Shown here in pieces: positions 26,858 to 57,829 of a stretch of 64,000 nucleotides of DNA. A program made the position numbers and the translations under genes. Source of the DNA: an uncultured Planctomycetales bacterium (lineage in GTDB: Bacteria; Omnitrophota; Gorgyraeia; Zapsychrales; Fredricksoniimonadaceae); the NCBI GenBank assembly GCA_964572155.1, contig CAZNDZ010000003.1, forward strand, positions 138,224 to 202,223. Reading direction: 5' to 3'. Positions within the stretch are counted from its first letter, which is position 1. Every line of letters starts with the position of its first letter. The notes below the pieces were generated by a model, which saw only the letters and a list, made by a program, of their open reading frames with translations, made no database searches and was not told the DNA's origin.

Positions 26858-28294
26858 TTGATAAGCTGTACAATATTAATTTATATTCACCATAACTTCA
26901 AATTAAAAATTACCGCAATGAAGGATTCTTCTCGCATGATTTGGTTAAGCATTGCCCTCTCTTGGATCTGGTGGATATACTTAGGCACACATGTCCACAT
27001 GGTCTTGGCACAAGATGCCCTTGTATATGAAACGTTGGGTCGCAATATCGCTGATCAAGGATTTTTCCCAAATTTCTTTGTCCAAGGACCCAATCGAGAA
27101 CCCATTTACCCCTTGATGGTTGCTTTTGCCATGAAAATGGCATTTTGGTACCGCATCCCCTTTGAAAACATCATGATCACGTTTGGCATTGTGATTTTGG
27201 GACTTAATCAGCTCTGTCTTTTACGATTACTGCAAATTTTAAAAATTCGCACTTCGATTATAGCATTATCATTACTATATCTAGGCTTCTCACCGTCGAT
27301 CAATAATGCGGCATTAAGTTTATACTCAGAAATATCTGCCATCACCTTTATCTTACCCCTTTTACTCATCACGTATTACGTCTATGAAAACGTCCGAAAC
27401 GATGCAAAAATCCCTAGCATGATCTCTGCTTTAGGCATTGGGGTTGCGGTTAATTATTTAACATTGGTCAAAGCCCCATTTGAAATCATCACGCCTGTAT
27501 TCTTAAGCGCGCTTTATGTTTTGCTATGGCGTGCATACCCAACAAAAGTACGCTTGATTAGCATATGTGCTGCGATCAGTTTTTCTATTTTCATTGGCTT
27601 TATTCATCATTACAAAAGTTTGAATCAATATTACAACGGGCAATATGCCCTAACAAATCGTGCATCATGGGCTTTATACGGCAACACAGCCCGTCGGATG
27701 GAGCCGCTTAATGGCACCCGTTTATTAGGCGCCATGGCCTATGTGCCTGGGGATGGCGTTTGCAAACGTTTTATCGACGCTGATACCTGTGATTTCTGGT
27801 CTTTTCGCATGTCTGATGAAATAGGCATGACAAAGATCAGCGCCTTACAAAAATTCAACAAAGATGCCGATGCAACCAATCAAGCCTTAGTACGTGATGC
27901 CGCGCACATGGCACTATCTAATCCACTGCAATATGCGTTCCTTACATGCTTAGAAGGAACTAAGATGTTCTTCTGGGAGTCTACACAAATTGGTTTTGTG
28001 AACTATCCGACGTGGTTAAATCACATTTATAACAATGAGATGTTTAAAGATGCGTTGCGTCTAGTAGTAGCGCTTGTCACCATCTTTGCTGTTGGATTTG
28101 TTTGGGTACTTAGCTTTAGAAAAACTACTGAACCTGTTGTGCGCCTCATGGGCTTACTCATTTTTTTGTGGATAGGAACATATGCCTTCTTTTTTATCGT
28201 CACACGTTATGCTTTGCCAATTGCCTCTTTATTTATAATTGCCATCGCATATACGGCTAATATTTTGTATAATAACCGCCATGCCAAACATTAA
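26858..28294 (+). CDS. ArnT/PMT_2-like GT-C membrane glycosyltransferase; track start is TTG, likely true start at downstream Met (about 26918)
   Basis: Loop motif QDALVYETLGRNIADQG resembling ArnT DExRYAExxR motif; about 12 TM helices. Confidence 0.55.
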   Translation: MISCTILIYIHHNFKLKITAMKDSSRMIWLSIALSWIWWIYLGTHVHMVLAQDALVYETLGRNIADQGFFPNFFVQGPNREPIYPLMVAFAMKMAFWYRIPFENIMITFGIVILGLNQLCLLRLLQILKIRTSIIALSLLYLGFSPSINNAALSLYSEISAITFILPLLLITYYVYENVRNDAKIPSMISALGIGVAVNYLTLVKAPFEIITPVFLSALYVLLWRAYPTKVRLISICAAISFSIFIGFIHHYKSLNQYYNGQYALTNRASWALYGNTARRMEPLNGTRLLGAMAYVPGDGVCKRFIDADTCDFWSFRMSDEIGMTKISALQKFNKDADATNQALVRDAAHMALSNPLQYAFLTCLEGTKMFFWESTQIGFVNYPTWLNHIYNNEMFKDALRLVVALVTIFAVGFVWVLSFRKTTEPVVRLMGLLIFLWIGTYAFFFIVTRYALPIASLFIIAIAYTANILYNNRHAKH

Positions 28295-29153
28295 GAACAT
28301 TTTCAGAACAAAGCAACGCACAATTTCATTTGAATTGTTCCCCCCTAAAACACCTGAGGGTGAAACAAAACTCTTTACCACCATTGAAAAACTTGGTTGT
28401 CTCAAACCTGATTTCTTCTCGTGCACCTATGGTGCGGGTGGGTCAAGCCGTGGAAAAACTTTAGAAATTGTCAGCCACATCCAAGATAAATATAAGATCG
28501 CGGCCATGGCGCATTTGACATGTGTCATGCATACCAAGGATGACATTAAGAATATTCTCGAGGATATGAAACAGCGCCACATCAACAATATCTTGGCCTT
28601 GCGTGGTGATCCACCAAAAGATAATCCTAATTACCAATTAGAAAAAGAAAACTTTGCTTACTCTTCTGACTTGATTAAATTTATCCGCAATTATCTTGGT
28701 GAGACAGCGACGATTGCTGCCGCAGGATTTCCGGAAGGGCATATCTTAGCACCCAACAAAATTTTTGATGCGGGCATCCTAAAAAGCAAGATCGATCATG
28801 GCGCGGACTTCATCATCACCCAATTATTTTTCAACAATCAAGAATATTACGATTACATCGCACGCTTAAAACACTTGGGCGTAACTGCACGCGTGATCCC
28901 AGGAATATTACCAATCACCGACTATAACGCGCTGGTTCGTTTTTGTGCTCTTTGCGGCGCCACCATCCCCCAGAACGTGCACGCTATCTTTAAACCCCTA
29001 GCTGATAATCCAGTTGCCACGCTTGAGGCCGGTATCAAATTTGCAGTTGAACAATGCCAAGATCTTCTTGATCATGGTGCACCTGGATTACACTTCTACA
29101 CGCTAAACAAAGTTTCCCCGACGCAAGAAGTTCTAAGTAAGCTTAAAATTTAA
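28281..29153 (+). CDS. metF: 5,10-methylenetetrahydrofolate reductase
   Basis: ISFELFPPKT, FSCTYGAGGS, AHLTC, LALRGDPP, colinear with E. coli MetF; start chosen at ATG (MPNIKNIF) rather than upstream TTG. Confidence 0.85.
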   Translation: MPNIKNIFRTKQRTISFELFPPKTPEGETKLFTTIEKLGCLKPDFFSCTYGAGGSSRGKTLEIVSHIQDKYKIAAMAHLTCVMHTKDDIKNILEDMKQRHINNILALRGDPPKDNPNYQLEKENFAYSSDLIKFIRNYLGETATIAAAGFPEGHILAPNKIFDAGILKSKIDHGADFIITQLFFNNQEYYDYIARLKHLGVTARVIPGILPITDYNALVRFCALCGATIPQNVHAIFKPLADNPVATLEAGIKFAVEQCQDLLDHGAPGLHFYTLNKVSPTQEVLSKLKI

Positions 29154-31125
29154 GTTTCACACCAGCGTTATACGACCTGCCTTGGGCTGGAAAATGCGAC
29201 TTGATGTTGGATGTAACGGCTTTGCTAACGTAGATGTCATAATGTTCATCTAGGATATTATCTACTTCCCCAAAAACTTCCCATGTGTCTTTGCTGTAAC
29301 TTATTCGCGAATCCAAAACAAAATATGGGTCGGTTTGCGGCAATGCATTGCCGATATCATTGATAGCGAATTGATTGCCAACATAACGACCTTGGAGCAT
29401 CCAATCCAAATGATCGGTTAACCCCACCGCTAAACTCATTGCCCCCTGAAATTGTGGGGCCATGGGGACTTTATTACCTTTATAAACACCGTTACTAAAC
29501 GTAGCATGCTGATATGTATAATTTGTTTTCCATAATAATTTTTTTATCTGCTGCGCTTTAAGCATGGCTTTTAGATCCACCTCTTGTTCATACTCTACCC
29601 CAATGCGGCGGGTTCGATCATAATTACTCGTCGCACCAAAGCCACCACCGCCAGCGGGATCTAAGAAGATTTCATTGCGATTGTCCATGACATACGGCGT
29701 TAGACTAACTTTCAAGACATCATTGAAACGATGTTTGACCCCAGCTTGATATTGCACGCCTTTTTGTTGGTTTAAACTGGTATTTAAACCATTGAACGTA
29801 TCAAACCAATCATCCGTTGTTAAAAAACGAAACGTTTGGCTGACGTTGGCAAATATATTGCTTTGTGGAGCATATTCATATCTCATTCCGCCACTGGCGA
29901 TATGTTTATCGGGGTTTTGTTGTTGATACGTCTTTGTGCCGCTGACTTGATTGAACGTATAGTAGGCCTTATCAAAACGCGTACCTGCCTCCAGAAATAG
30001 ATTATCGACAACTTCATAACTGCCATTGGTATAAACCCCAATCTCATTTTTGGTTATCGTCAAATCATCACTGTTGCCAGCACTGCCATATATCCAATTG
30101 TCATCGGTATAATAATCAACACCTGTTGCTAAATTCAACAGCTTACCGTCGATCAAACGTTCCAGGACATAGCGACCATTGATGCCCCAACTATTAATGT
30201 TGCGCTTGGTGGCATATTCGCCAAAGGAATAAAACACCGCGTAACTATCTCGATTACGAAATGATGCATCGACGATAAAATGACCTAAATCTTCATCAGC
30301 CCACGGATTAAAATCGGTCGTGATCGCAAACATCCGATCCTTGGTCATGGCATAGTCCTCAGGATTGGCGGTACCTTTAGGTCCAAGCGTTGCCAAAGGC
30401 CCATCTTTTAAACCACCGGTTAAACCATATTTATCTTCATGCCAATTTAATTTAAAATCAATCTTAATGGGTTCAATAGGGTTTATACCAAGACGGCCCA
30501 CATAATCGCGGCTACGCAATTGGCTGTTTGCCCTATATCCGTCGGTATCAAACTGCTGTGCGCTAAAATAATAATCCACCTTCGATTGCGCGCCTGAAAA
30601 TTCCTGAGATGTTTTTAAGGTGTCATAACTACCATAGGTTGAGGATAAAACCGCATGATGCCCTGCCTTGCCCTTCTTGGTGATGATATTAATGACCCCG
30701 CCAACGGCATTGTCTCCATATAAAACAGAAGCCCCGCCGCGAATGATTTCAATGCGTTCAATAGAGTCGATGGGAATTTGCAGAAAATCAGGACCAGAAT
30801 TGTCAACAGGATTGATGCGTCGATGATTAACTAGAAGCAAGACATTACGCGTTGCGGTATCACCAAAGCCTCTCATATCTGCGACAACCGTCTTTGGAGA
30901 ACTGTTATCTACAATTGCAATACCCAACTGACCTTTTAACACATCCCCCACACTTTGCGCGTGGCTTTGGGCAATATCTTGACTAGAAATGACCGTTACT
31001 GACGATGGTAAATGAGCAACATCTTGATCGTAACGACTAGCAGTTAAAACAATTTTTTGTAAATCAATGGTTTCTGCAAAAACGGGGGTGGCAAACAACA
31101 ACAAAAAAAGGCATAGTACAGGCAT
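29143..31125 (-). CDS. btuB: TonB-dependent outer-membrane receptor, likely cobalamin transporter BtuB given the upstream B12 riboswitch
   Basis: Signal peptide MPVLCLFLLLFATPVFA; TonB box ETIDLQKIVLTAS; plug domain; C-terminal F; SD GGGAG 5 nt before ATG at 31125. Confidence 0.8.
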   Translation of the reverse strand: MPVLCLFLLLFATPVFAETIDLQKIVLTASRYDQDVAHLPSSVTVISSQDIAQSHAQSVGDVLKGQLGIAIVDNSSPKTVVADMRGFGDTATRNVLLLVNHRRINPVDNSGPDFLQIPIDSIERIEIIRGGASVLYGDNAVGGVINIITKKGKAGHHAVLSSTYGSYDTLKTSQEFSGAQSKVDYYFSAQQFDTDGYRANSQLRSRDYVGRLGINPIEPIKIDFKLNWHEDKYGLTGGLKDGPLATLGPKGTANPEDYAMTKDRMFAITTDFNPWADEDLGHFIVDASFRNRDSYAVFYSFGEYATKRNINSWGINGRYVLERLIDGKLLNLATGVDYYTDDNWIYGSAGNSDDLTITKNEIGVYTNGSYEVVDNLFLEAGTRFDKAYYTFNQVSGTKTYQQQNPDKHIASGGMRYEYAPQSNIFANVSQTFRFLTTDDWFDTFNGLNTSLNQQKGVQYQAGVKHRFNDVLKVSLTPYVMDNRNEIFLDPAGGGGFGATSNYDRTRRIGVEYEQEVDLKAMLKAQQIKKLLWKTNYTYQHATFSNGVYKGNKVPMAPQFQGAMSLAVGLTDHLDWMLQGRYVGNQFAINDIGNALPQTDPYFVLDSRISYSKDTWEVFGEVDNILDEHYDIYVSKAVTSNIKSHFPAQGRSYNAGVKLKF

Positions 31126-31144
31126 GTAAACTCCCATCTCTCGT

Positions 31145-31280
31145 AGGGTTAATTAAAACGACTGCATCAGCGGGCATTCGGACTTGTTCCCTAGAGGGAC
31201 TTACCGTAGCGGGACTGCTCCTGAGTTGCACAGGATTTCCCCATCTGATACTTCAACAACGCTTCATACCCTGCATACAA
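31145..31280 (-). promoter_or_regulatory. Cobalamin (adenosylcobalamin) riboswitch in 5-prime leader of the TonB-dependent receptor gene
   Basis: Minus-strand GGGAAAUCCUGUGCAACUCAGGAGCAGUCCCGCUACGGUAAG matches the conserved core (E. coli btuB leader AGGGAAUCCAGUGCGAAUCUGGAGCUGACGCGCAGCGGUAAGG); downstream AAGUCCGAAUGCCCGCUG resembles the B12 box. Confidence 0.7.
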
Positions 31281-31709
31281 CACCATGCTGTAGGCAACAG
31301 TACTTAGCAATGTACTTCTAAAAAATGGAATGGCTAAAATATAACAATCAGTTAAACCCGCCCACGTGCGCGGGTAAAGCGTTAGAAAAGCACCAAAATT
31401 TGTGACGATAAAAAATATGACAGCGCCCAAAATGCTGCCGCCTAAGACATTAGCCCAACTCTTACGTGACTTTAGAAATGAACCAATCGCGCTAATGGCA
31501 ATCATGCTGCCATAAGTAAAAACCATGGTGTCATGGAAGCCTAAGATTAAGTCAGTGACAAGCATCATACCGACTGGAACCATATATGCCATGCGGCCTT
31601 TTAAATACATGCCGGCAAATAAAGCGATTGCCAGCGTCGCCGTAAATTGCGGTGTATGCACGATGACGCGCGAAAAAATTCCAATGATAACTAAGAGGAT
31701 TGCAAACAT
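31191..31709 (-). CDS. Small polytopic membrane protein, ECF-transporter S-component-like (function uncertain); last about 18 codons overlap the riboswitch
   Basis: 172 aa, 5-6 hydrophobic helices; stop codon TAG lies inside the riboswitch core. Confidence 0.45.
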   Translation of the reverse strand: MFAILLVIIGIFSRVIVHTPQFTATLAIALFAGMYLKGRMAYMVPVGMMLVTDLILGFHDTMVFTYGSMIAISAIGSFLKSRKSWANVLGGSILGAVIFFIVTNFGAFLTLYPRTWAGLTDCYILAIPFFRSTLLSTVAYSMVLYAGYEALLKYQMGKSCATQEQSRYGKSL

Positions 31710-31750
31710 GAGGTTATTCTAATTGCCAACATAAATATGTCAACCGCTAA

Positions 31751-32119
31751 TTATTCTTGAATATAGTCCTGTTTGCCAGAAGCCATAGCAACATCGACCT
31801 TTTTAAGCTCTTTCCCAAGATATGCCGCATGCGCTTTATCAGAAAACCATAACTTGCGATGCCGCTTCTCATAACGAAAGATTTCTTCGAAAATATCAAC
31901 CGACCGCTTACCCCGAAACACTTTTACAATCACGTGACGCTTATCGCAGATAGCAACTTCGATTGTCTTATGCGCATAATCAGGTCGAATCAACACATAA
32001 AACCCTGTTCTATCCCGACGGAAATCCTTAATCGGATCATAAATAGAACAGTCGATGGTCTCACAATGAGGATCCATCGACTGTTTATGCCAAACATAGT
32101 TGACTTTCTTAGCGACCAT
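31751..32119 (-). CDS. Hypothetical protein, co-operonic third gene downstream of higBA
   Basis: 122-aa ORF starting 2 nt after higA stop; basic, no recognisable motif. Confidence 0.4.
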   Translation of the reverse strand: MVAKKVNYVWHKQSMDPHCETIDCSIYDPIKDFRRDRTGFYVLIRPDYAHKTIEVAICDKRHVIVKVFRGKRSVDIFEEIFRYEKRHRKLWFSDKAHAAYLGKELKKVDVAMASGKQDYIQE

Positions 32120-32121
32120 AA

Positions 32122-32469
32122 TTAATTCATGCTTAACTTTAAAGGTTTGATCGTCTTAAGTTCTTTACTAGGATTCTTATGTGCATGCCAAAGGTCATAG
32201 GCTACTTGTCCTTGTATCCAAAACTCAACAGAAGTTTCAAAAAGCCTGCCTAATCGCTGAGCTATTTCTAGGGACAGTGGTTTGCGGGTGTGCACGATAT
32301 CAATAAGATGCTTCCGAGAAATCTTTAGATGAGAAGCCATATCTTGTTGAGTGATGTTATATGGCAACATAAACTCCTCTACTAATATTTCTCCAGGATG
32401 TATTGGAGCTCTATTCTTTGGTAATCGGATGGTATTTCTTAAATTAGTTTTCATTATTCTTCCTTTCAA
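32122..32469 (-). CDS. higA: HigA antitoxin (XRE-family HTH)
   Basis: IHPGEILVEEFMLPYNITQQDMASHLKISRKHLIDIV...FWIQGQVAYDLW matches HigA consensus; ATGA overlap with higB. Confidence 0.8.
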   Translation of the reverse strand: MKGRIMKTNLRNTIRLPKNRAPIHPGEILVEEFMLPYNITQQDMASHLKISRKHLIDIVHTRKPLSLEIAQRLGRLFETSVEFWIQGQVAYDLWHAHKNPSKELKTIKPLKLSMN

Positions 32470-32759
32470 TGATAATCAATGATTTCGACTTCGCTTGGCC
32501 CCAAATCTGTCCAATAGAAACAAATCCTATATTGATCATTGATTCGAATACTATGTTGTCCTTTTCGATCCCCCTTAAGAGCTTCCAACTTGTTGTTTGG
32601 CGGCGATCTTAAATCATTTAGAGTAACAGCATGATCTAACGCATAAAATTTTCTGTACGCAACCCTCCATAAAGAAACAGGCAAACATTTCAAGGCAACT
32701 TTAGTTCGAATGCCGTCATATACAGATTCTGCTGCGCTATTCTTAAAACTTTGTATCAC
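32466..32759 (-). CDS. higB: HigB toxin (RelE/ParE superfamily plasmid maintenance system killer)
   Basis: LKGDRKGQHSIRINDQYRICFYW...VEIIDYH matches HigB consensus. Confidence 0.8.
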   Translation of the reverse strand: MIQSFKNSAAESVYDGIRTKVALKCLPVSLWRVAYRKFYALDHAVTLNDLRSPPNNKLEALKGDRKGQHSIRINDQYRICFYWTDLGPSEVEIIDYH

Positions 32760-56320: not shown

Positions 56321-57829
56321 TTAAACAGTAGAGGTTTCCAAAATCTTGCGTTTTAATTTAATTTGCGTCGACTTCAATGTTTCATCGACAGCAATTTGAC
56401 CGAACTTTGTCTTTAATAAATCTAAGAATTTAGGATTCGTGTGATACTTCATCCATGCTTCATCACGGAATGCCAAAACTTGGTTTGCACTTAAATATTT
56501 TGTCGGCAAAGGTTGGCATTCATAGGAATGCTGTGAAAACCCTGCATAACTCGACGGGAGTTTCCAACCTTCTTTCTTGGCAATCCCATACAAAGGGCTA
56601 CCTGGATAAGCCATGGCTGAATAAAAATTAGCTTCTTCGGTATTCATTTCAATCGCCAAATCAAGCGTCATCTTCATGCTGTCAATATCATCTTCAGGAA
56701 GACCAAAGATATAATTACCAATGACATTGATGCCATGATCGCGAATTTTCTTAACGACGGCATGAATATCCACATCATCAAATCGACCCTTGGTCACATC
56801 TTTACGCACACGGGTATTGCCGCTTTCAATCCCTAAAGCCAACCAATTAACCCCTGCCTTCTTTAATGTGGCTAAATATTGGTCTTTAACGGTATCGACA
56901 CGTGAATAACACCAGATATTAAATTTATAACCGCGCTCAATGATCATTTCGCAAATGCGCATGAAGTGATCCGCACGTAAAACGAAAAGCTCGTCGGCAA
57001 TTTTAATATTCGTAATGCCCTGAGAAGCAAAGAAATCAAATTCTTTAATGATATGCTCTGGATCCCAATAACGGAAAACTGCCGAACCGTCGGAGAATTC
57101 ATTCTCTTGACGATTGATGATATTAATCATACAGAAAGAACATTTCATCGGGCAACCAAGCGACGTGTATAACGCGGCAAACGGTTGACGCTGTGAATTA
57201 TTCGGATACGAATGCCACAATGCGGTGCGATAATTCTTTATCGGTAATAAATCCCAAGCAATGCCTGGCATTTCACGCGGCAAATCTGCTTTTGCGACAA
57301 TGGGCGATGGTTTATTTAAAACAATTTGACCATCTTTTCTCCAACCTAACCCATCGACTAAATCCAACTTATCTTTCAAATTGGTTTTAAGTAAATTTGA
57401 TAACGTGTAAACCCCTTCGTTTTGACAAACGAAATCAATGGCAGGATGATTTTCTAATACTTCACGCGATAATGCTGATATATGACCACCGACAAATGCA
57501 ATTTTAATCGATGACGCATTAGCTTTAACCAATTCAGCTAAACCAATCGCGCCGGCCATATTTTGAGAACTGGCTGATGGTTGTTGACCGTAAACAACAA
57601 AACAAACAACCTTAGGGTTAGCTTCTTTGATCTTACTGGCAGCTTGCTCATCGCTTAAATGCAAGGCTTCCGCATCTAAAATATCGACGGAGAAACCTTT
57701 AACACGGCAATGACTGGCCAACATGCCCGCCCAAATAGGAGGCTCTATCGCCGAATAATCTTTCGCTAAATCTTGGTAGATTTTGCGTGAAGCGTTGGGA
57801 TGAACAAAGAGGATATCGAGTTGGCTCAT
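56321..57829 (-). CDS. Cobalamin-binding (class B) radical SAM enzyme, candidate sugar C-methyltransferase
   Basis: 502 aa; N-terminal B12-binding-like Rossmann domain; CPMKCSFC (CxxxCxxC) radical SAM cluster motif. Confidence 0.8.
   Translation of the reverse strand: MSQLDILFVHPNASRKIYQDLAKDYSAIEPPIWAGMLASHCRVKGFSVDILDAEALHLSDEQAASKIKEANPKVVCFVVYGQQPSASSQNMAGAIGLAELVKANASSIKIAFVGGHISALSREVLENHPAIDFVCQNEGVYTLSNLLKTNLKDKLDLVDGLGWRKDGQIVLNKPSPIVAKADLPREMPGIAWDLLPIKNYRTALWHSYPNNSQRQPFAALYTSLGCPMKCSFCMINIINRQENEFSDGSAVFRYWDPEHIIKEFDFFASQGITNIKIADELFVLRADHFMRICEMIIERGYKFNIWCYSRVDTVKDQYLATLKKAGVNWLALGIESGNTRVRKDVTKGRFDDVDIHAVVKKIRDHGINVIGNYIFGLPEDDIDSMKMTLDLAIEMNTEEANFYSAMAYPGSPLYGIAKKEGWKLPSSYAGFSQHSYECQPLPTKYLSANQVLAFRDEAWMKYHTNPKFLDLLKTKFGQIAVDETLKSTQIKLKRKILETSTV

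What the first reader, a model, noticed from the sequence alone, without database searches (positions are those of the whole stretch)
31145..31280. Cobalamin riboswitch upstream of a TonB-dependent receptor, overlapping the 3-prime end of the preceding membrane-protein ORF
The minus-strand leader contains GGGAAAUCCUGUGCAACUCAGGAGCAGUCCCGCUACGGUAAG. This closely matches the conserved P4-P6 core of the E. coli btuB leader, followed by a B12-box-like AAGUCCGAAUGCCCGCUG. The strong SD (GGGAG) for the receptor sits 25 nt further on, inside a possible sequestering hairpin. This marks the receptor as a B12 importer. It is functionally coherent with the cobalamin-dependent radical SAM enzyme at 56321-57829 and with metF next door. 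The upstream 172-aa ORF reads through the riboswitch core for about 18 codons.
Basis: partly seen in the sequence, partly recalled or inferred. Interest (0 to 1): 0.6.

Follow-up and report, generated by a model that had tools for sequence, protein, structure and literature searches.

The report
B12 riboswitch overlapping an upstream gene
This is a genuine vitamin-B12-sensing RNA switch in front of an outer-membrane receptor gene, an ordinary kind of element, but its first two-thirds are also the last 20 codons of the neighbouring membrane-protein gene.

Summary
Rfam places one cobalamin riboswitch aptamer at window 31251..31164 (minus strand): RF01689 AdoCbl-II, 40.4 bits against a gathering score of 36.5, E 3.4e-6. 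It is the only RNA-family hit in the 64 kb window.

The aptamer has the short class-II architecture, with only a 4-bp mini-hairpin in P6. Its helices covary in 29 homologues.

The downstream gene is a 660-aa TonB-dependent receptor. Its Shine-Dalgarno GGGAG (31135-31131) forms the 3' strand of a small P13 hairpin. The loop of that hairpin (CGAGAGA) can kiss L5 (UCCCG). The most likely mechanism is B12-dependent translational repression of the receptor.

The upstream 172-aa ORF is a DUF6580 protein. It reads 61 nt into the aptamer and stops at a UAG in the P6 mini-hairpin. All seven sequence-distinct members of the window's clade share this arrangement, so their C-terminal tails are dictated by the RNA.

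More distant relatives, mostly labelled Omnitrophota, keep the same order: DUF6580, riboswitch, receptor. Their stop codon lies within about 10 nt of the aptamer, and they use a terminator-type platform.

No internal promoter was found. DUF6580 has a conserved promoter exactly 6 nt before its ATG, which suggests a leaderless bicistronic mRNA.

Verdict: a new member of a known kind in an unusual, compact setting.

The parts
31164..31251 (-). Cobalamin riboswitch aptamer, class-II-like. P1 is G31251-A31246(G31245) with (C31170)U31169-C31164. P3 is G31242-G31240 with C31174-C31172. J3/4 is GAAA, 31239-31236. P4 is 31235-31231 with 31223-31219, and its loop is UGCAACU. P6 is C31206-G31204 with C31181-G31179.
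   Evidence: Rfam RF01689, 40.4 bits against GA 36.5. My own covariance model gives 72 bits. Across 29 homologues the core helices are 99.5% paired, 8 of 14 pairs show changes on both sides, and 0 of 500 shuffles reach this. Within the clade, P1 and P3 show compensatory changes in L166.
31208..31216 (-). P5 (A31216-U31208, G31215-C31209, U31214.G31210) with loop L5, CCC at 31213-31211. This is the aptamer's partner in the kissing loop.
   Evidence: It aligns to the <<<____>>> element of RF01689. The P5 pairs are 100% paired in 29 homologues. The L5 assignment follows the env8 numbering in PMC5028336.
31188..31199 (-). P6 mini-hairpin UCCC-UCUA-GGGA. It holds the UAG stop codon (31193-31191) of the upstream ORF in its loop and first 3' stem base.
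   Evidence: This is the 19-nt insertion at the P6 loop in the Rfam alignment. All 7 clade members have a hairpin here, with stem changes that keep the pairing, and all place the stop (UAG or UAA) in the loop.
31170..31184 (-). B12 box, AGUCCGAAUGCCCGC. It covers the P6 3' strand, J6/3 and the P3 3' strand.
   Evidence: It aligns to the RF01689 consensus CcGAGcGCCaC. The columns are invariant in alignment A2.
31191..31251 (-). The 61-nt overlap, where aptamer bases are also codons 153-172 plus the stop of the DUF6580 ORF (tail YQMGKSCATQEQSRYGKSL).
   Evidence: The Pfam DUF6580 match ends at residue 152. Other homologues end ...KRSQGTALARL[FVIL] at 164-165 aa. Tail residues vary only where the RNA varies. 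The tail has pLDDT 51 and 41 in the structure model.
31191..31709 (-). DUF6580 (PF20221) membrane-protein gene, 172 aa. It is a candidate inner-membrane B12 permease with an ECF S-component-like fold.
   Evidence: Pfam E 5.1e-42. AF2 model pLDDT 83.5. The structurally consistent Foldseek hits are FolT, BioY, RibU and ThiT S-components, with probability up to 1.0 but E 0.18 or worse. It lies next to B12 riboswitches and B12-uptake genes in several phyla.
31716..31743 (-). Sigma-70-type promoter-like site TTGACA-16-TAGAAT. It ends exactly 6 nt before the DUF6580 ATG, which implies a leaderless mRNA.
   Evidence: It matches 11 of 12 positions. Both hexamers and the 6-nt distance to the ATG are conserved in all 7 clade members while the spacer varies, and there is no SD.
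31151..31163 (-). J1/13 linker AGUCGUUUUAAUU. It is U/A-rich and single-stranded.
   Evidence: Read from the sequence. Relatives have a J1/13 of 10-17 nt.
31129..31150 (-). P13 hairpin. The inner stem is C31147-G31133, C31146-G31134, U31145.G31135 and A31144-U31136. The loop L13 is CGAGAGA (31143-31137). The outer pairs are A31150-U31129, A31149-U31130 and C31148-G31131, with A31132 bulged.
   Evidence: RNAfold gives -4.1 kcal/mol. In the clade U31145 pairs with G or A, and C31148 changes to U while keeping a G.U pair. About 30 relatives have a homologous hairpin with loop CG..GA(A) and a covarying stem.
31131..31135 (-). Shine-Dalgarno GGGAG of the receptor gene. It lies in the 3' strand of P13.
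   Evidence: Its first two G residues are paired in more than 95% of the predicted ensemble.
29143..31125 (-). TonB-dependent receptor gene, 660 aa from the ATG at 31125, with a signal peptide. This is the regulated gene.
   Evidence: Plug E 7.9e-23 and barrel E 1.2e-28. The public gene calls give 660 aa. The only full-length NCBIfam alignment is to TonB-B12 TIGR01779, but it is below the cutoff. A receptor of this size follows the riboswitch in all relatives examined.

Best explanation
The element is a functional cobalamin riboswitch of the short class-II type. It sits between two genes of one probable mRNA.

Transcription most likely starts at a conserved promoter whose -10 box ends 6 nt before the DUF6580 ATG, giving a leaderless message. 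It then runs through DUF6580, the aptamer and the TonB-dependent receptor gene.

When B12 is bound, the four-way-junction aptamer is closed. Its loop L5 (UCCCG) docks on the loop of the downstream P13 hairpin (CG...GA). This stabilises an otherwise weak hairpin whose 3' strand is the receptor's Shine-Dalgarno sequence, so 30S binding is blocked and less receptor is made. Without B12, P13 breathes and the receptor is translated.

The last 20 codons of DUF6580 are the 5' two-thirds of the aptamer. Every ribosome finishing DUF6580 must therefore melt P1 through P6, and it terminates inside the P6 mini-hairpin. B12 sensing can only act on messages, or in intervals, free of ribosomes on that stretch.

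Shown: the identity of the aptamer, its structure and covariation, the overlap and its conservation, the SD lying inside P13, and the conserved gene order.
Inferred: co-transcription, the L5-L13 contact, the OFF sign of regulation, B12 as the receptor's substrate, and any effect of upstream translation.
For: - Rfam hit above the gathering score, unique in the window.
- Core helices are 99.5% paired, with 8 of 14 pairs changed on both sides across 29 homologues and 0 of 500 shuffles reaching that.
- Within the 7-member clade, L166 changes P3 G-C to A-U and U.G to U-A. The P6 mini-hairpin changes length while keeping its pairing.
- P13 with a CG..GA loop recurs in about 30 relatives at a J1/13 of 10-17 nt, and its stem covaries.
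- L5 UCCCG can pair with L13 as G-C, C-G ... C-G, U-A with unpaired bases in the middle. This is the pattern described for env8 and the clan (PMC5028336).
- In the two relatives with L5 UCGCG, L13 is CGCGUCA or CGCGUAA, which gives four contiguous pairs.
- The SD forms the 3' strand of P13 in all clade members, and its G/A variation keeps pairing with U.
- A receptor gene follows the riboswitch in every relative examined.
- No promoter-like site lies between the DUF6580 start and the aptamer apart from a weak 9/12 match at 31592.
- In relatives the aptamer starts within -11 to +6 nt of the DUF6580 stop, leaving no intergenic room for a promoter.
- The DUF6580 promoter is conserved.
Against: - No ligand-binding or expression data exist.
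- The L5-L13 contact rests on conserved complementarity plus one covarying lineage, which is not statistically strong.
- Nearest-neighbour folding predicts the SD to be largely paired whether or not the aptamer helices are enforced. The model therefore shows no switch without the unmodelled tertiary contact.
- SD GGGA is also perfectly complementary to L5 UCCC, so a direct L5-SD contact is an alternative geometry.
- Relatives use a different, terminator-based platform whose regulatory sign I could not resolve.
- An internal promoter that does not resemble the sigma-70 consensus cannot be excluded.
- The receptor is not closer to BtuB than to YncD, PqqU or Cir.
Confidence: 0.75

Rival explanations
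1. The aptamer is genuine but works as a dual or translation-coupled device. Either the B12-bound aptamer hinders ribosomes finishing DUF6580, lowering output of the inner-membrane protein as well. Or translation of the upstream ORF resets the aptamer and de-represses the receptor, possibly feeding it by termination-reinitiation. In both versions the overlap is functional rather than incidental.
For: - The overlap is fixed in 7 lineages whose DUF6580 proteins share 77-84% identity with the window's. The stop codon is always in the loop of the P6 mini-hairpin.
- A second, independent overlap exists in L171.
- Even in non-overlapping relatives the stop codon abuts or enters P1, at -11 to +6 nt. 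A terminating ribosome would cover P1 there too.
- DUF6580 looks leaderless.
- There is a precedent in M. tuberculosis. A translated uORF inside the metE B12 aptamer changes MetE expression more than 10-fold, and PPE2 is made by termination-reinitiation (PMC11260477).
Against: - Ribosomes normally unwind such structures.
- The stop codon lies 66 nt from the receptor AUG, which is long for reinitiation.
- Genome compaction alone explains tight packing.
- The riboswitch-encoded tail is predicted disordered and shows no sign of selection as a peptide.
- There is no direct evidence.
Confidence: 0.12
2. The riboswitch is a decaying relic. In this clade, deletions removed the ancestral C-terminal tail of DUF6580 and the terminator platform. 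The aptamer is now just translated sequence, and the receptor is expressed constitutively.
For: - Compared with relatives, the clade has lost about 12 codons plus the spacer upstream of the aptamer. Downstream it has lost the whole X:Y/terminator module.
- P13 is weak, -0.8 to -4 kcal/mol.
Against: - The aptamer still passes Rfam's curated threshold.
- All core positions are kept across the 7 sequence-distinct clade members, while flanking coding sequence diverges.
- Changes in P1, P3 and P6 are compensatory.
- Tail amino acids vary only at RNA-variable positions, so the constraint acts on the RNA.
Confidence: 0.06
3. The riboswitch activates the receptor in response to B12, or it acts on transcription or Rho-dependent termination rather than on ribosome binding.
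For: - In 21 of 32 relatives scanned, a hairpin with a conserved GGG loop, complementary to L5 UCCC, shares its 3' strand with the 5' strand of an intrinsic terminator.
- By the published rules, a P13 that shares sequence with the terminator gives an activating switch (PMC10327014).
- The window's SD GGGAG resembles that GGG loop.
Against: - The window clade has no terminator hairpin or U-run platform.
- In the window, GGG lies in a stem 3' strand and is the SD, so contact with L5 or P13 formation would occlude it rather than expose it.
- The hairpin directly after the aptamer, with loop CG..GA, is the better P13 candidate, including in relatives L014 and L047, which show a classical repressing layout.
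- B12 import genes are normally repressed by B12 (established knowledge).
Confidence: 0.07

Closest known systems
Class-II cobalamin riboswitch (Rfam RF01689; env8HyCbl, Johnson 2012 / Polaski 2016, PMC5028336)
   Same: It has a four-way-junction core without the large P6 peripheral extension. It passes this family's gathering score. A single-stranded J1/13 is followed by a short P13 hairpin that carries the ribosome-binding site. An L5-L13 loop-loop contact with unpaired purines in L13 is possible. The control logic is translational.
   Different: - The SD is in the 3' strand of P13, not in the loop.
- J1/13 is 13 nt, against 7 in env8.
- P6 carries a 4-bp mini-hairpin.
- L5 is CCC, as in class I, rather than UACU.
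- The 5' 61 nt are coding sequence of an upstream gene.
- Ligand preference (AdoCbl versus MeCbl or HyCbl) was not determined.
E. coli btuB leader riboswitch (RF00174, class I)
   Same: It is a B12 riboswitch in front of a TonB-dependent outer-membrane receptor. It shares the conserved GGGAA...GUCCCGC..ACGGUAA core and the B12 box, and it represses translation.
   Different: The btuB element has the long P6 extension and lies in the 5' UTR of a monocistronic gene. Here RF00174 scores below RF01689.
M. tuberculosis metE and ppe2 B12 riboswitches with translated uORFs (Kipkorir 2024, PMC11260477)
   Same: Ribosomes translate through part of a B12 aptamer or leader. Translation and riboswitch folding are expected to interact.
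   Different: In M. tuberculosis these are short uORFs that start inside the leader. Here it is the 3' end of a full-length, conserved 172-aa membrane-protein gene, and no experiment exists.
BtuM, solitary S-component-type B12 transporter of Proteobacteria (Rempel 2018, PMC6072759)
   Same: This comparison concerns the upstream gene. DUF6580 is a small membrane protein, 172 aa here against ~22 kDa for BtuM, and it co-localises with a btuB-like receptor. Its predicted fold is ECF S-component-like, and it has an invariant Cys and His.
   Different: No sequence similarity to BtuM is detectable. A profile search of the PDB finds only 6fnp_A at E 0.67. DUF6580 is a different Pfam family with no functional data.

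Membership tests
Cobalamin riboswitch clan CL00101 / RF01689 AdoCbl-II | Covariance-model score at or above the curated gathering score | tested here: met
   40.4 bits against 36.5, full model 1-81, E 3.4e-6 on 64 kb. A second clan family also passed its own threshold.
Cobalamin riboswitch clan CL00101 / RF01689 AdoCbl-II | Conserved core sequences: J3/4 GGGAAA, L5 region GUCCCGC, ACGGUAA, and the B12 box AGUCCGAAUGCC | tested here: met
   All are present at 31241-31170. They are invariant columns in alignment A2.
Cobalamin riboswitch clan CL00101 / RF01689 AdoCbl-II | Helices P3, P4, P5 and P6 (and P1) form and are kept by compensatory change in homologues | tested here: met
   99.5% of cells are paired. 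8 of 14 pairs have changes on both sides, 0 of 500 shuffles reach this, and slid controls give at most 49% paired. The alignment was fitted to the model, which favours the structure. P1 and P3 compensation in L166 comes from an independent MAFFT alignment.
Cobalamin riboswitch clan CL00101 / RF01689 AdoCbl-II | Class II: no large P6 peripheral extension | tested here: met
   The P6 loop holds only 19 nt, forming a 4-bp hairpin. RF01689 outscores RF00174 in the window. The close relative L004 is scored best by RF00174 at 45.3 bits, so the element sits near the boundary between the two models.
Cobalamin riboswitch clan CL00101 / RF01689 AdoCbl-II | Regulatory L5-L13 kissing loop with a P13 hairpin that holds or controls the RBS | tested here: inconclusive
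   A P13 hairpin with the SD in its 3' strand is present and conserved. L5 UCCCG and L13 CG..GA are complementary. L014 and L047 covary (UCGCG with CGCG..). Most positions never vary, so there is no statistical support.
Cobalamin riboswitch clan CL00101 / RF01689 AdoCbl-II | Binds a cobalamin and changes expression of the downstream gene | not testable with these tools
   This needs in-line probing or ITC, and reporter assays.
BtuB (TonB-dependent vitamin B12 receptor, TIGR01779 / PRK10641) | Score above the equivalog cutoff | tested here: not met
   TIGR01779 scores 126.7 bits against a cutoff of 599.7, and PRK10641 scores 80.6 against 836. In the PDB, YncD, PqqU and Cir score above BtuB. The protein is a TonB-dependent receptor (Plug and barrel). 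B12 as its substrate is inferred from the riboswitch only.
DUF6580 (PF20221) | Pfam score above the gathering threshold over the whole domain | tested here: met
   144.3 bits against 27, residues 3-152 on profile positions 10-156 of 162.
ECF-transporter S-component fold (for DUF6580) | Predicted structure superposes on solved S-components | tested here: inconclusive
   The AF2 model has pLDDT 83.5. The Foldseek PDB hits with low rmsd (3.3-5.2 A) are all S-components: 4huq_S, FolT, BioY, RibU and ThiT. Their TM-scores are 0.45-0.64 and probability reaches 1.0, but E is 0.18 or worse. The PDB sequence profile gives only 6fnp_A at E 0.67.

The most novel reading that the evidence does not exclude
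The overlap may be a working part of the switch. One leaderless bicistronic mRNA would carry a B12 aptamer that is both the end of the inner-membrane transporter's coding sequence and the sensor for the outer-membrane receptor. Translation of the first gene and B12 sensing for the second would then gate each other. Ribosomes finishing DUF6580 would erase the bound state, or the bound aptamer would impede completion of DUF6580. The same stop-codon-on-P1 geometry in relatives from Omnitrophota-labelled and neighbouring lineages would make this a general design for that operon.
Probability: 0.12. Interest if true: 0.7.

Novelty: new member of a known kind. Interest (0 to 1): 0.38.

Why it matters
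As a riboswitch it is routine: it adds an unannotated instance from an uncultured lineage and marks the receptor as a B12-regulon gene.

Two things around it are worth more.
1. It is a clean, conserved natural case of a metabolite-sensing aptamer that is also protein-coding sequence. The peptide tail is visibly dictated by RNA constraints. This makes the interplay of translation and riboswitch folding testable with simple stop-codon mutants.
2. The survey it prompted ties the uncharacterised family DUF6580 to B12 uptake in Omnitrophota-labelled MAGs, Bacteroidota, Ignavibacteriota and other lineages. That nominates DUF6580 as a missing inner-membrane B12 permease, analogous to BtuM. The library search found no paper that mentions it.

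Tried and rejected
1. I first took the UGCAACU loop for L5 and looked for covariation with the P13 loop. There was none, and the env8 numbering in PMC5028336 showed that this loop is L4.

2. An env8-like P13 with GGGAG in the loop would need flanking pairs A-U, G.U and N-N. Only two are kept in the clade, so I rejected it.

3. I considered a long-range 'P0' helix between a UGUUCU motif at the end of the relatives' DUF6580 ORF and the AGAACA in P13. The motif is mostly explained by the conserved peptide ...ARLF-stop. The pairing fails in L009, L011, L088 and L091, so this is not supported.

4. I considered an anti-sequestor pairing between the P3 5' strand UGGGG and the P13 5' strand CCCUA. L167 shows G-to-A with C-to-U, which is suggestive. 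The change is confounded with P3 and P13 pairing, and the helix is only 5 bp. I keep it as a possibility only.

5. Internal promoter: the consensus scan found none near the aptamer.

6. Nearest-neighbour folding of seven clade leaders, with and without P1 and P3 enforced, shows no change in SD accessibility. This is uninformative without the tertiary contact. The z-score of the 171-nt fold is -0.05, also uninformative.

7. The metagenome scan with the window protein returned no further member of the 172-aa clade. Those came from exact-protein look-ups instead.

8. I could not work out the ON/OFF logic of the relatives' terminator platform.

Full report
**What is there**

On the minus strand, window 31251..31164 is a cobalamin riboswitch aptamer. 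A gathering-threshold scan of the whole 64-kb window against Rfam 15 returns exactly one hit. It is RF01689 (AdoCbl-II), over the full model, at 40.4 bits against a curated threshold of 36.5 and E 3.4e-6. A second family of the same clan also passed its threshold on the same bases and was hidden by clan competition. Restricted to 901 nt, E is 4.8e-8.

**Anatomy, read**

- P1: G31251-A31246(G31245) with (C31170)U31169-C31164.
- P3: G31242-G31240 with C31174-C31172 of the B12 box.
- J3/4: GAAA.
- P4: 31235-31231 with 31223-31219, loop UGCAACU.
- P5: A31216-U31208, G31215-C31209, U31214.G31210, with loop L5 = CCC.
- P6: C31206-G31204 with C31181-G31179.
- P6 encloses only 19 nt, which form a 4-bp mini-hairpin UCCC-UCUA-GGGA.
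- B12 box: AGUCCGAAUGCCCGC, 31184-31170.

There is no large P6 extension, so the architecture is class II. This is why RF01689 outscores the btuB-type model RF00174. The 80%-identical relative L004 is scored best by RF00174, so the element lies near the boundary between the two models.

**Is the structure under selection?**

I collected loci encoding relatives of the upstream protein: 80 from species-representative genomes, 80 from metagenomes, and the contigs of the closest proteins. I built a covariance model of the core and aligned 29 homologous aptamers. On that alignment:

- 99.5% of cells form standard pairs.
- 8 of 14 pairs show changes on both sides.
- No shuffle of 500 reaches these values.
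- Sliding the 3' partners drops pairing to 26-49%.

The alignment is fitted to the model, which favours it. An independent MAFFT alignment of the window's own clade also shows compensation. In L166, P3 changes G-C to A-U and the adjacent U.G to U-A. The P6 mini-hairpin changes length in L004 and L170 while keeping its stem.

**Flanking genes**

Downstream is a TonB-dependent receptor (Plug E 7.9e-23, barrel E 1.2e-28). Public gene calls start it at the ATG at 31125, giving 660 aa. GGGAG at 31135-31131 lies 5 nt upstream of that ATG.

Its sequence does not identify it as BtuB. The B12-receptor equivalog TIGR01779 is the only model that aligns full length, but it scores 126.7 against a cutoff of 599.7. 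Among solved structures, YncD, PqqU and Cir score above BtuB. B12 as substrate is an inference from the riboswitch and synteny.

Upstream is ORF 31709..31191, a DUF6580 protein (PF20221, E 5.1e-42). The Pfam match ends at residue 152, exactly where P1 begins.

**The overlap**

The ORF continues for 20 more codons through P1, P3, P4, P5 and half of P6. It stops at UAG 31193-31191, in the loop of the P6 mini-hairpin.

Most homologues are 164-165 aa and end with a conserved ...KRSQGTALARL[FVIL]. The window's clade comprises seven distinct sequences: the window plus six relatives (L004, L164, L166, L167, L169, L170), whose DUF6580 proteins are 77-84% identical to the window's. All are 172 aa and end in YQ[ML]GKSC..QEQSR.GKS. 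instead.

The invariant tail residues map to invariant RNA positions. The variable ones map to the L4 loop, the P5/P6 junction and the P6 loop. The tail is predicted disordered, with pLDDT 51 and 41. The tail is therefore a by-product of the RNA.

The stop is in the mini-hairpin loop in all seven. A more distant lineage (L171, 51% identity) reads into its aptamer independently and in another frame, stopping at the UGA of ACGGUGA.

**Conserved gene order**

- In 16 of the 20 closest species-level loci, Rfam finds a cobalamin riboswitch on the same strand immediately after DUF6580.
- In 12 of those 16, the stop codon lies between 11 nt before and 6 nt inside the Rfam-defined aptamer.
- In 15 of the 16 the next gene is a receptor-sized ORF of roughly 660-690 aa; L014's contig was too short to call one.
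- With my model, about 34 of the 80 genome loci have this arrangement.
- About 30 more, mostly Bacteroidota, Ignavibacteriota and Chlorobi-like, have a riboswitch upstream on the same strand.
- In several of those I checked (L034, L036, L042, L059, L065), a receptor-sized ORF lies between the riboswitch and DUF6580.
- Some loci have riboswitches on both sides of DUF6580.
- Pfam checks of neighbouring genes found Plug-domain receptors, a DUF5074/NHL propeller, cobalamin adenosyltransferase and a Peripla_BP_2 protein.

DUF6580 is thus a B12-locus gene in several phyla. Its AF2 model has pLDDT 83.5. It superposes at low rmsd only on ECF S-components such as FolT, BioY, RibU and ThiT, with TM-scores of 0.45-0.64 and probability up to 1.0 but weak E-values. 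This makes it analogous to the solitary B12 transporter BtuM, which was also found through co-localisation with btuB (PMC6072759). No sequence similarity to BtuM is detectable. No paper in the library mentions DUF6580.

**Transcription**

A TTGACA-16-TAGAAT site at 31743-31716 matches 11 of 12 positions. Both hexamers are conserved in all seven clade members while the spacer diverges. The site always ends exactly 6 nt before the ATG, and there is no Shine-Dalgarno. This points to a leaderless DUF6580 mRNA.

The scan finds no promoter-like site just upstream of the aptamer. In relatives there is no intergenic room for one. I therefore infer a bicistronic transcript with the riboswitch between the cistrons. 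This inference was not tested.

**Expression platform**

After P1 comes a 13-nt U/A-rich linker and then a hairpin at 31150-31129. Its inner stem is CCUA/UGGG and its loop is CGAGAGA. Its 3' strand is the SD (about -4 kcal/mol). In the clade the U pairs with G or A, and the outer C changes to U while keeping a wobble pair.

About 30 relatives carry the homologous hairpin 10-17 nt after the aptamer. Their loop is CG..GA(A) and their stems covary, for example CCUG/CAGG, CUUG/CAAG, UCG/CGA and GUUG/CAAC. I take this hairpin to be P13.

Its conserved loop ends can pair with L5 UCCCG as G-C, C-G ... C-G, U-A, with unpaired bases between. This is the irregular kissing loop described for env8 and for the clan (PMC5028336). 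In the two relatives whose L5 is UCGCG, the loop is CGCGUCA or CGCGUAA, giving four contiguous pairs. This is supportive but thin.

That criterion is not met.

The most likely mechanism is the standard one. B12 locks L5 onto L13, P13 is stabilised, the SD is hidden, and receptor translation falls. Secondary-structure thermodynamics alone show no switch, as expected when the tertiary contact is not modelled.

**What differs from relatives**

Relatives carry, after P13, a second hairpin with a conserved GGG loop. Its 3' strand is also the 5' strand of a strong intrinsic terminator (10-14 bp plus a U-run). This was found in 21 of 32 loci scanned. The window clade has lost this module, along with the ancestral DUF6580 tail. 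What remains is a compact translational platform.

By the published rules (PMC10327014), a P13 that shares sequence with the terminator would give an activating switch. I think the GGG hairpin is not P13. It may compete with P13 for L5, but I could not settle this. It leaves a small doubt about the regulatory sign.

**Consequences of the overlap**

Any ribosome completing DUF6580 must unwind P1 to P6, and it terminates inside the aptamer. Sensing and upstream translation therefore cannot be independent on one molecule. Whether this is exploited or merely tolerated is unknown.

The nearest precedent is M. tuberculosis, where a translated uORF inside the metE B12 aptamer changes MetE expression (PMC11260477).

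**Verdict**

The riboswitch is a new member of a known kind. Its setting is unusual: the aptamer is partly coding, it lies between two cistrons, and it follows a probably leaderless gene of a B12-linked DUF family. That setting is cheap to test.

Noticed in passing
window 31191-31709 (-); loci L004-L163: DUF6580 (PF20221) is linked to B12 riboswitches and B12-uptake genes in Omnitrophota-labelled MAGs, Elusimicrobia, Bacteroidota, Ignavibacteriota and other lineages. About 64 of 80 genome loci have a riboswitch on the same strand within 4 kb. Its predicted fold is ECF S-component-like, and H18, D53 and C122 are invariant. It is a candidate inner-membrane B12 permease, and the paper library does not mention it.
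   Followed up: partly
window 31709-31743 (-): The DUF6580 gene appears leaderless. A conserved TTGAC(A/T)-16/17-TA(G/C/A)AAT ends exactly 6 nt before the ATG in all 7 clade members, and there is no Shine-Dalgarno.
   Followed up: partly
L005-L030, L084-L091, L171 (60-150 nt after each aptamer): Relatives have a three-part platform: P13 (loop CG..GA), a hairpin with a conserved GGG loop that is perfectly complementary to L5 UCCC, and an intrinsic terminator. The terminator's 5' strand is the 3' strand of the GGG hairpin. This was seen in 21 of 32 loci. Either these are B12-activated switches, or L5 swaps between two partner loops. This is unresolved.
   Followed up: partly
same relatives, between P13 and the GGG hairpin: A conserved motif GCGCAUA(U/G)AU, often the palindrome AUGCGCAU, has no assigned role. 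It is also present in L014 and L047, which lack the GGG hairpin.
   Followed up: no
window 31751-32119 (-): A 122-aa PterinBD-DUF4346 ORF lies directly upstream of DUF6580 here and in the five clade contigs that extend that far. It has weak similarity to the C-terminus of MtrA-like and dihydropteroate-synthase-like proteins. It may belong to the same B12 or folate-related unit.
   Followed up: no
L171 3460-3553: This is a second, independent case of the DUF6580 ORF reading about 66 nt into its aptamer, in another frame. It ends at the UGA of the conserved ACGGUGA. It could be a real variant or an assembly frameshift.
   Followed up: partly
window 32122-32759 (-): A HigB-like toxin (97 aa) and an antitoxin-like ORF (115 aa here, 110-111 aa in the public gene calls) lie between GAPDH and the DUF4346-DUF6580 unit. 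The close relative L166 has an extra MazE/PIN pair at the same spot, so this is a variable insertion site.
   Followed up: no
window 56321-57829 (-) and 28239-29153 (+): A B12-binding-domain radical SAM enzyme and MTHFR (metF) are confirmed. metF converges on the receptor gene with an 11-nt overlap of the two 3' ends.
   Followed up: partly
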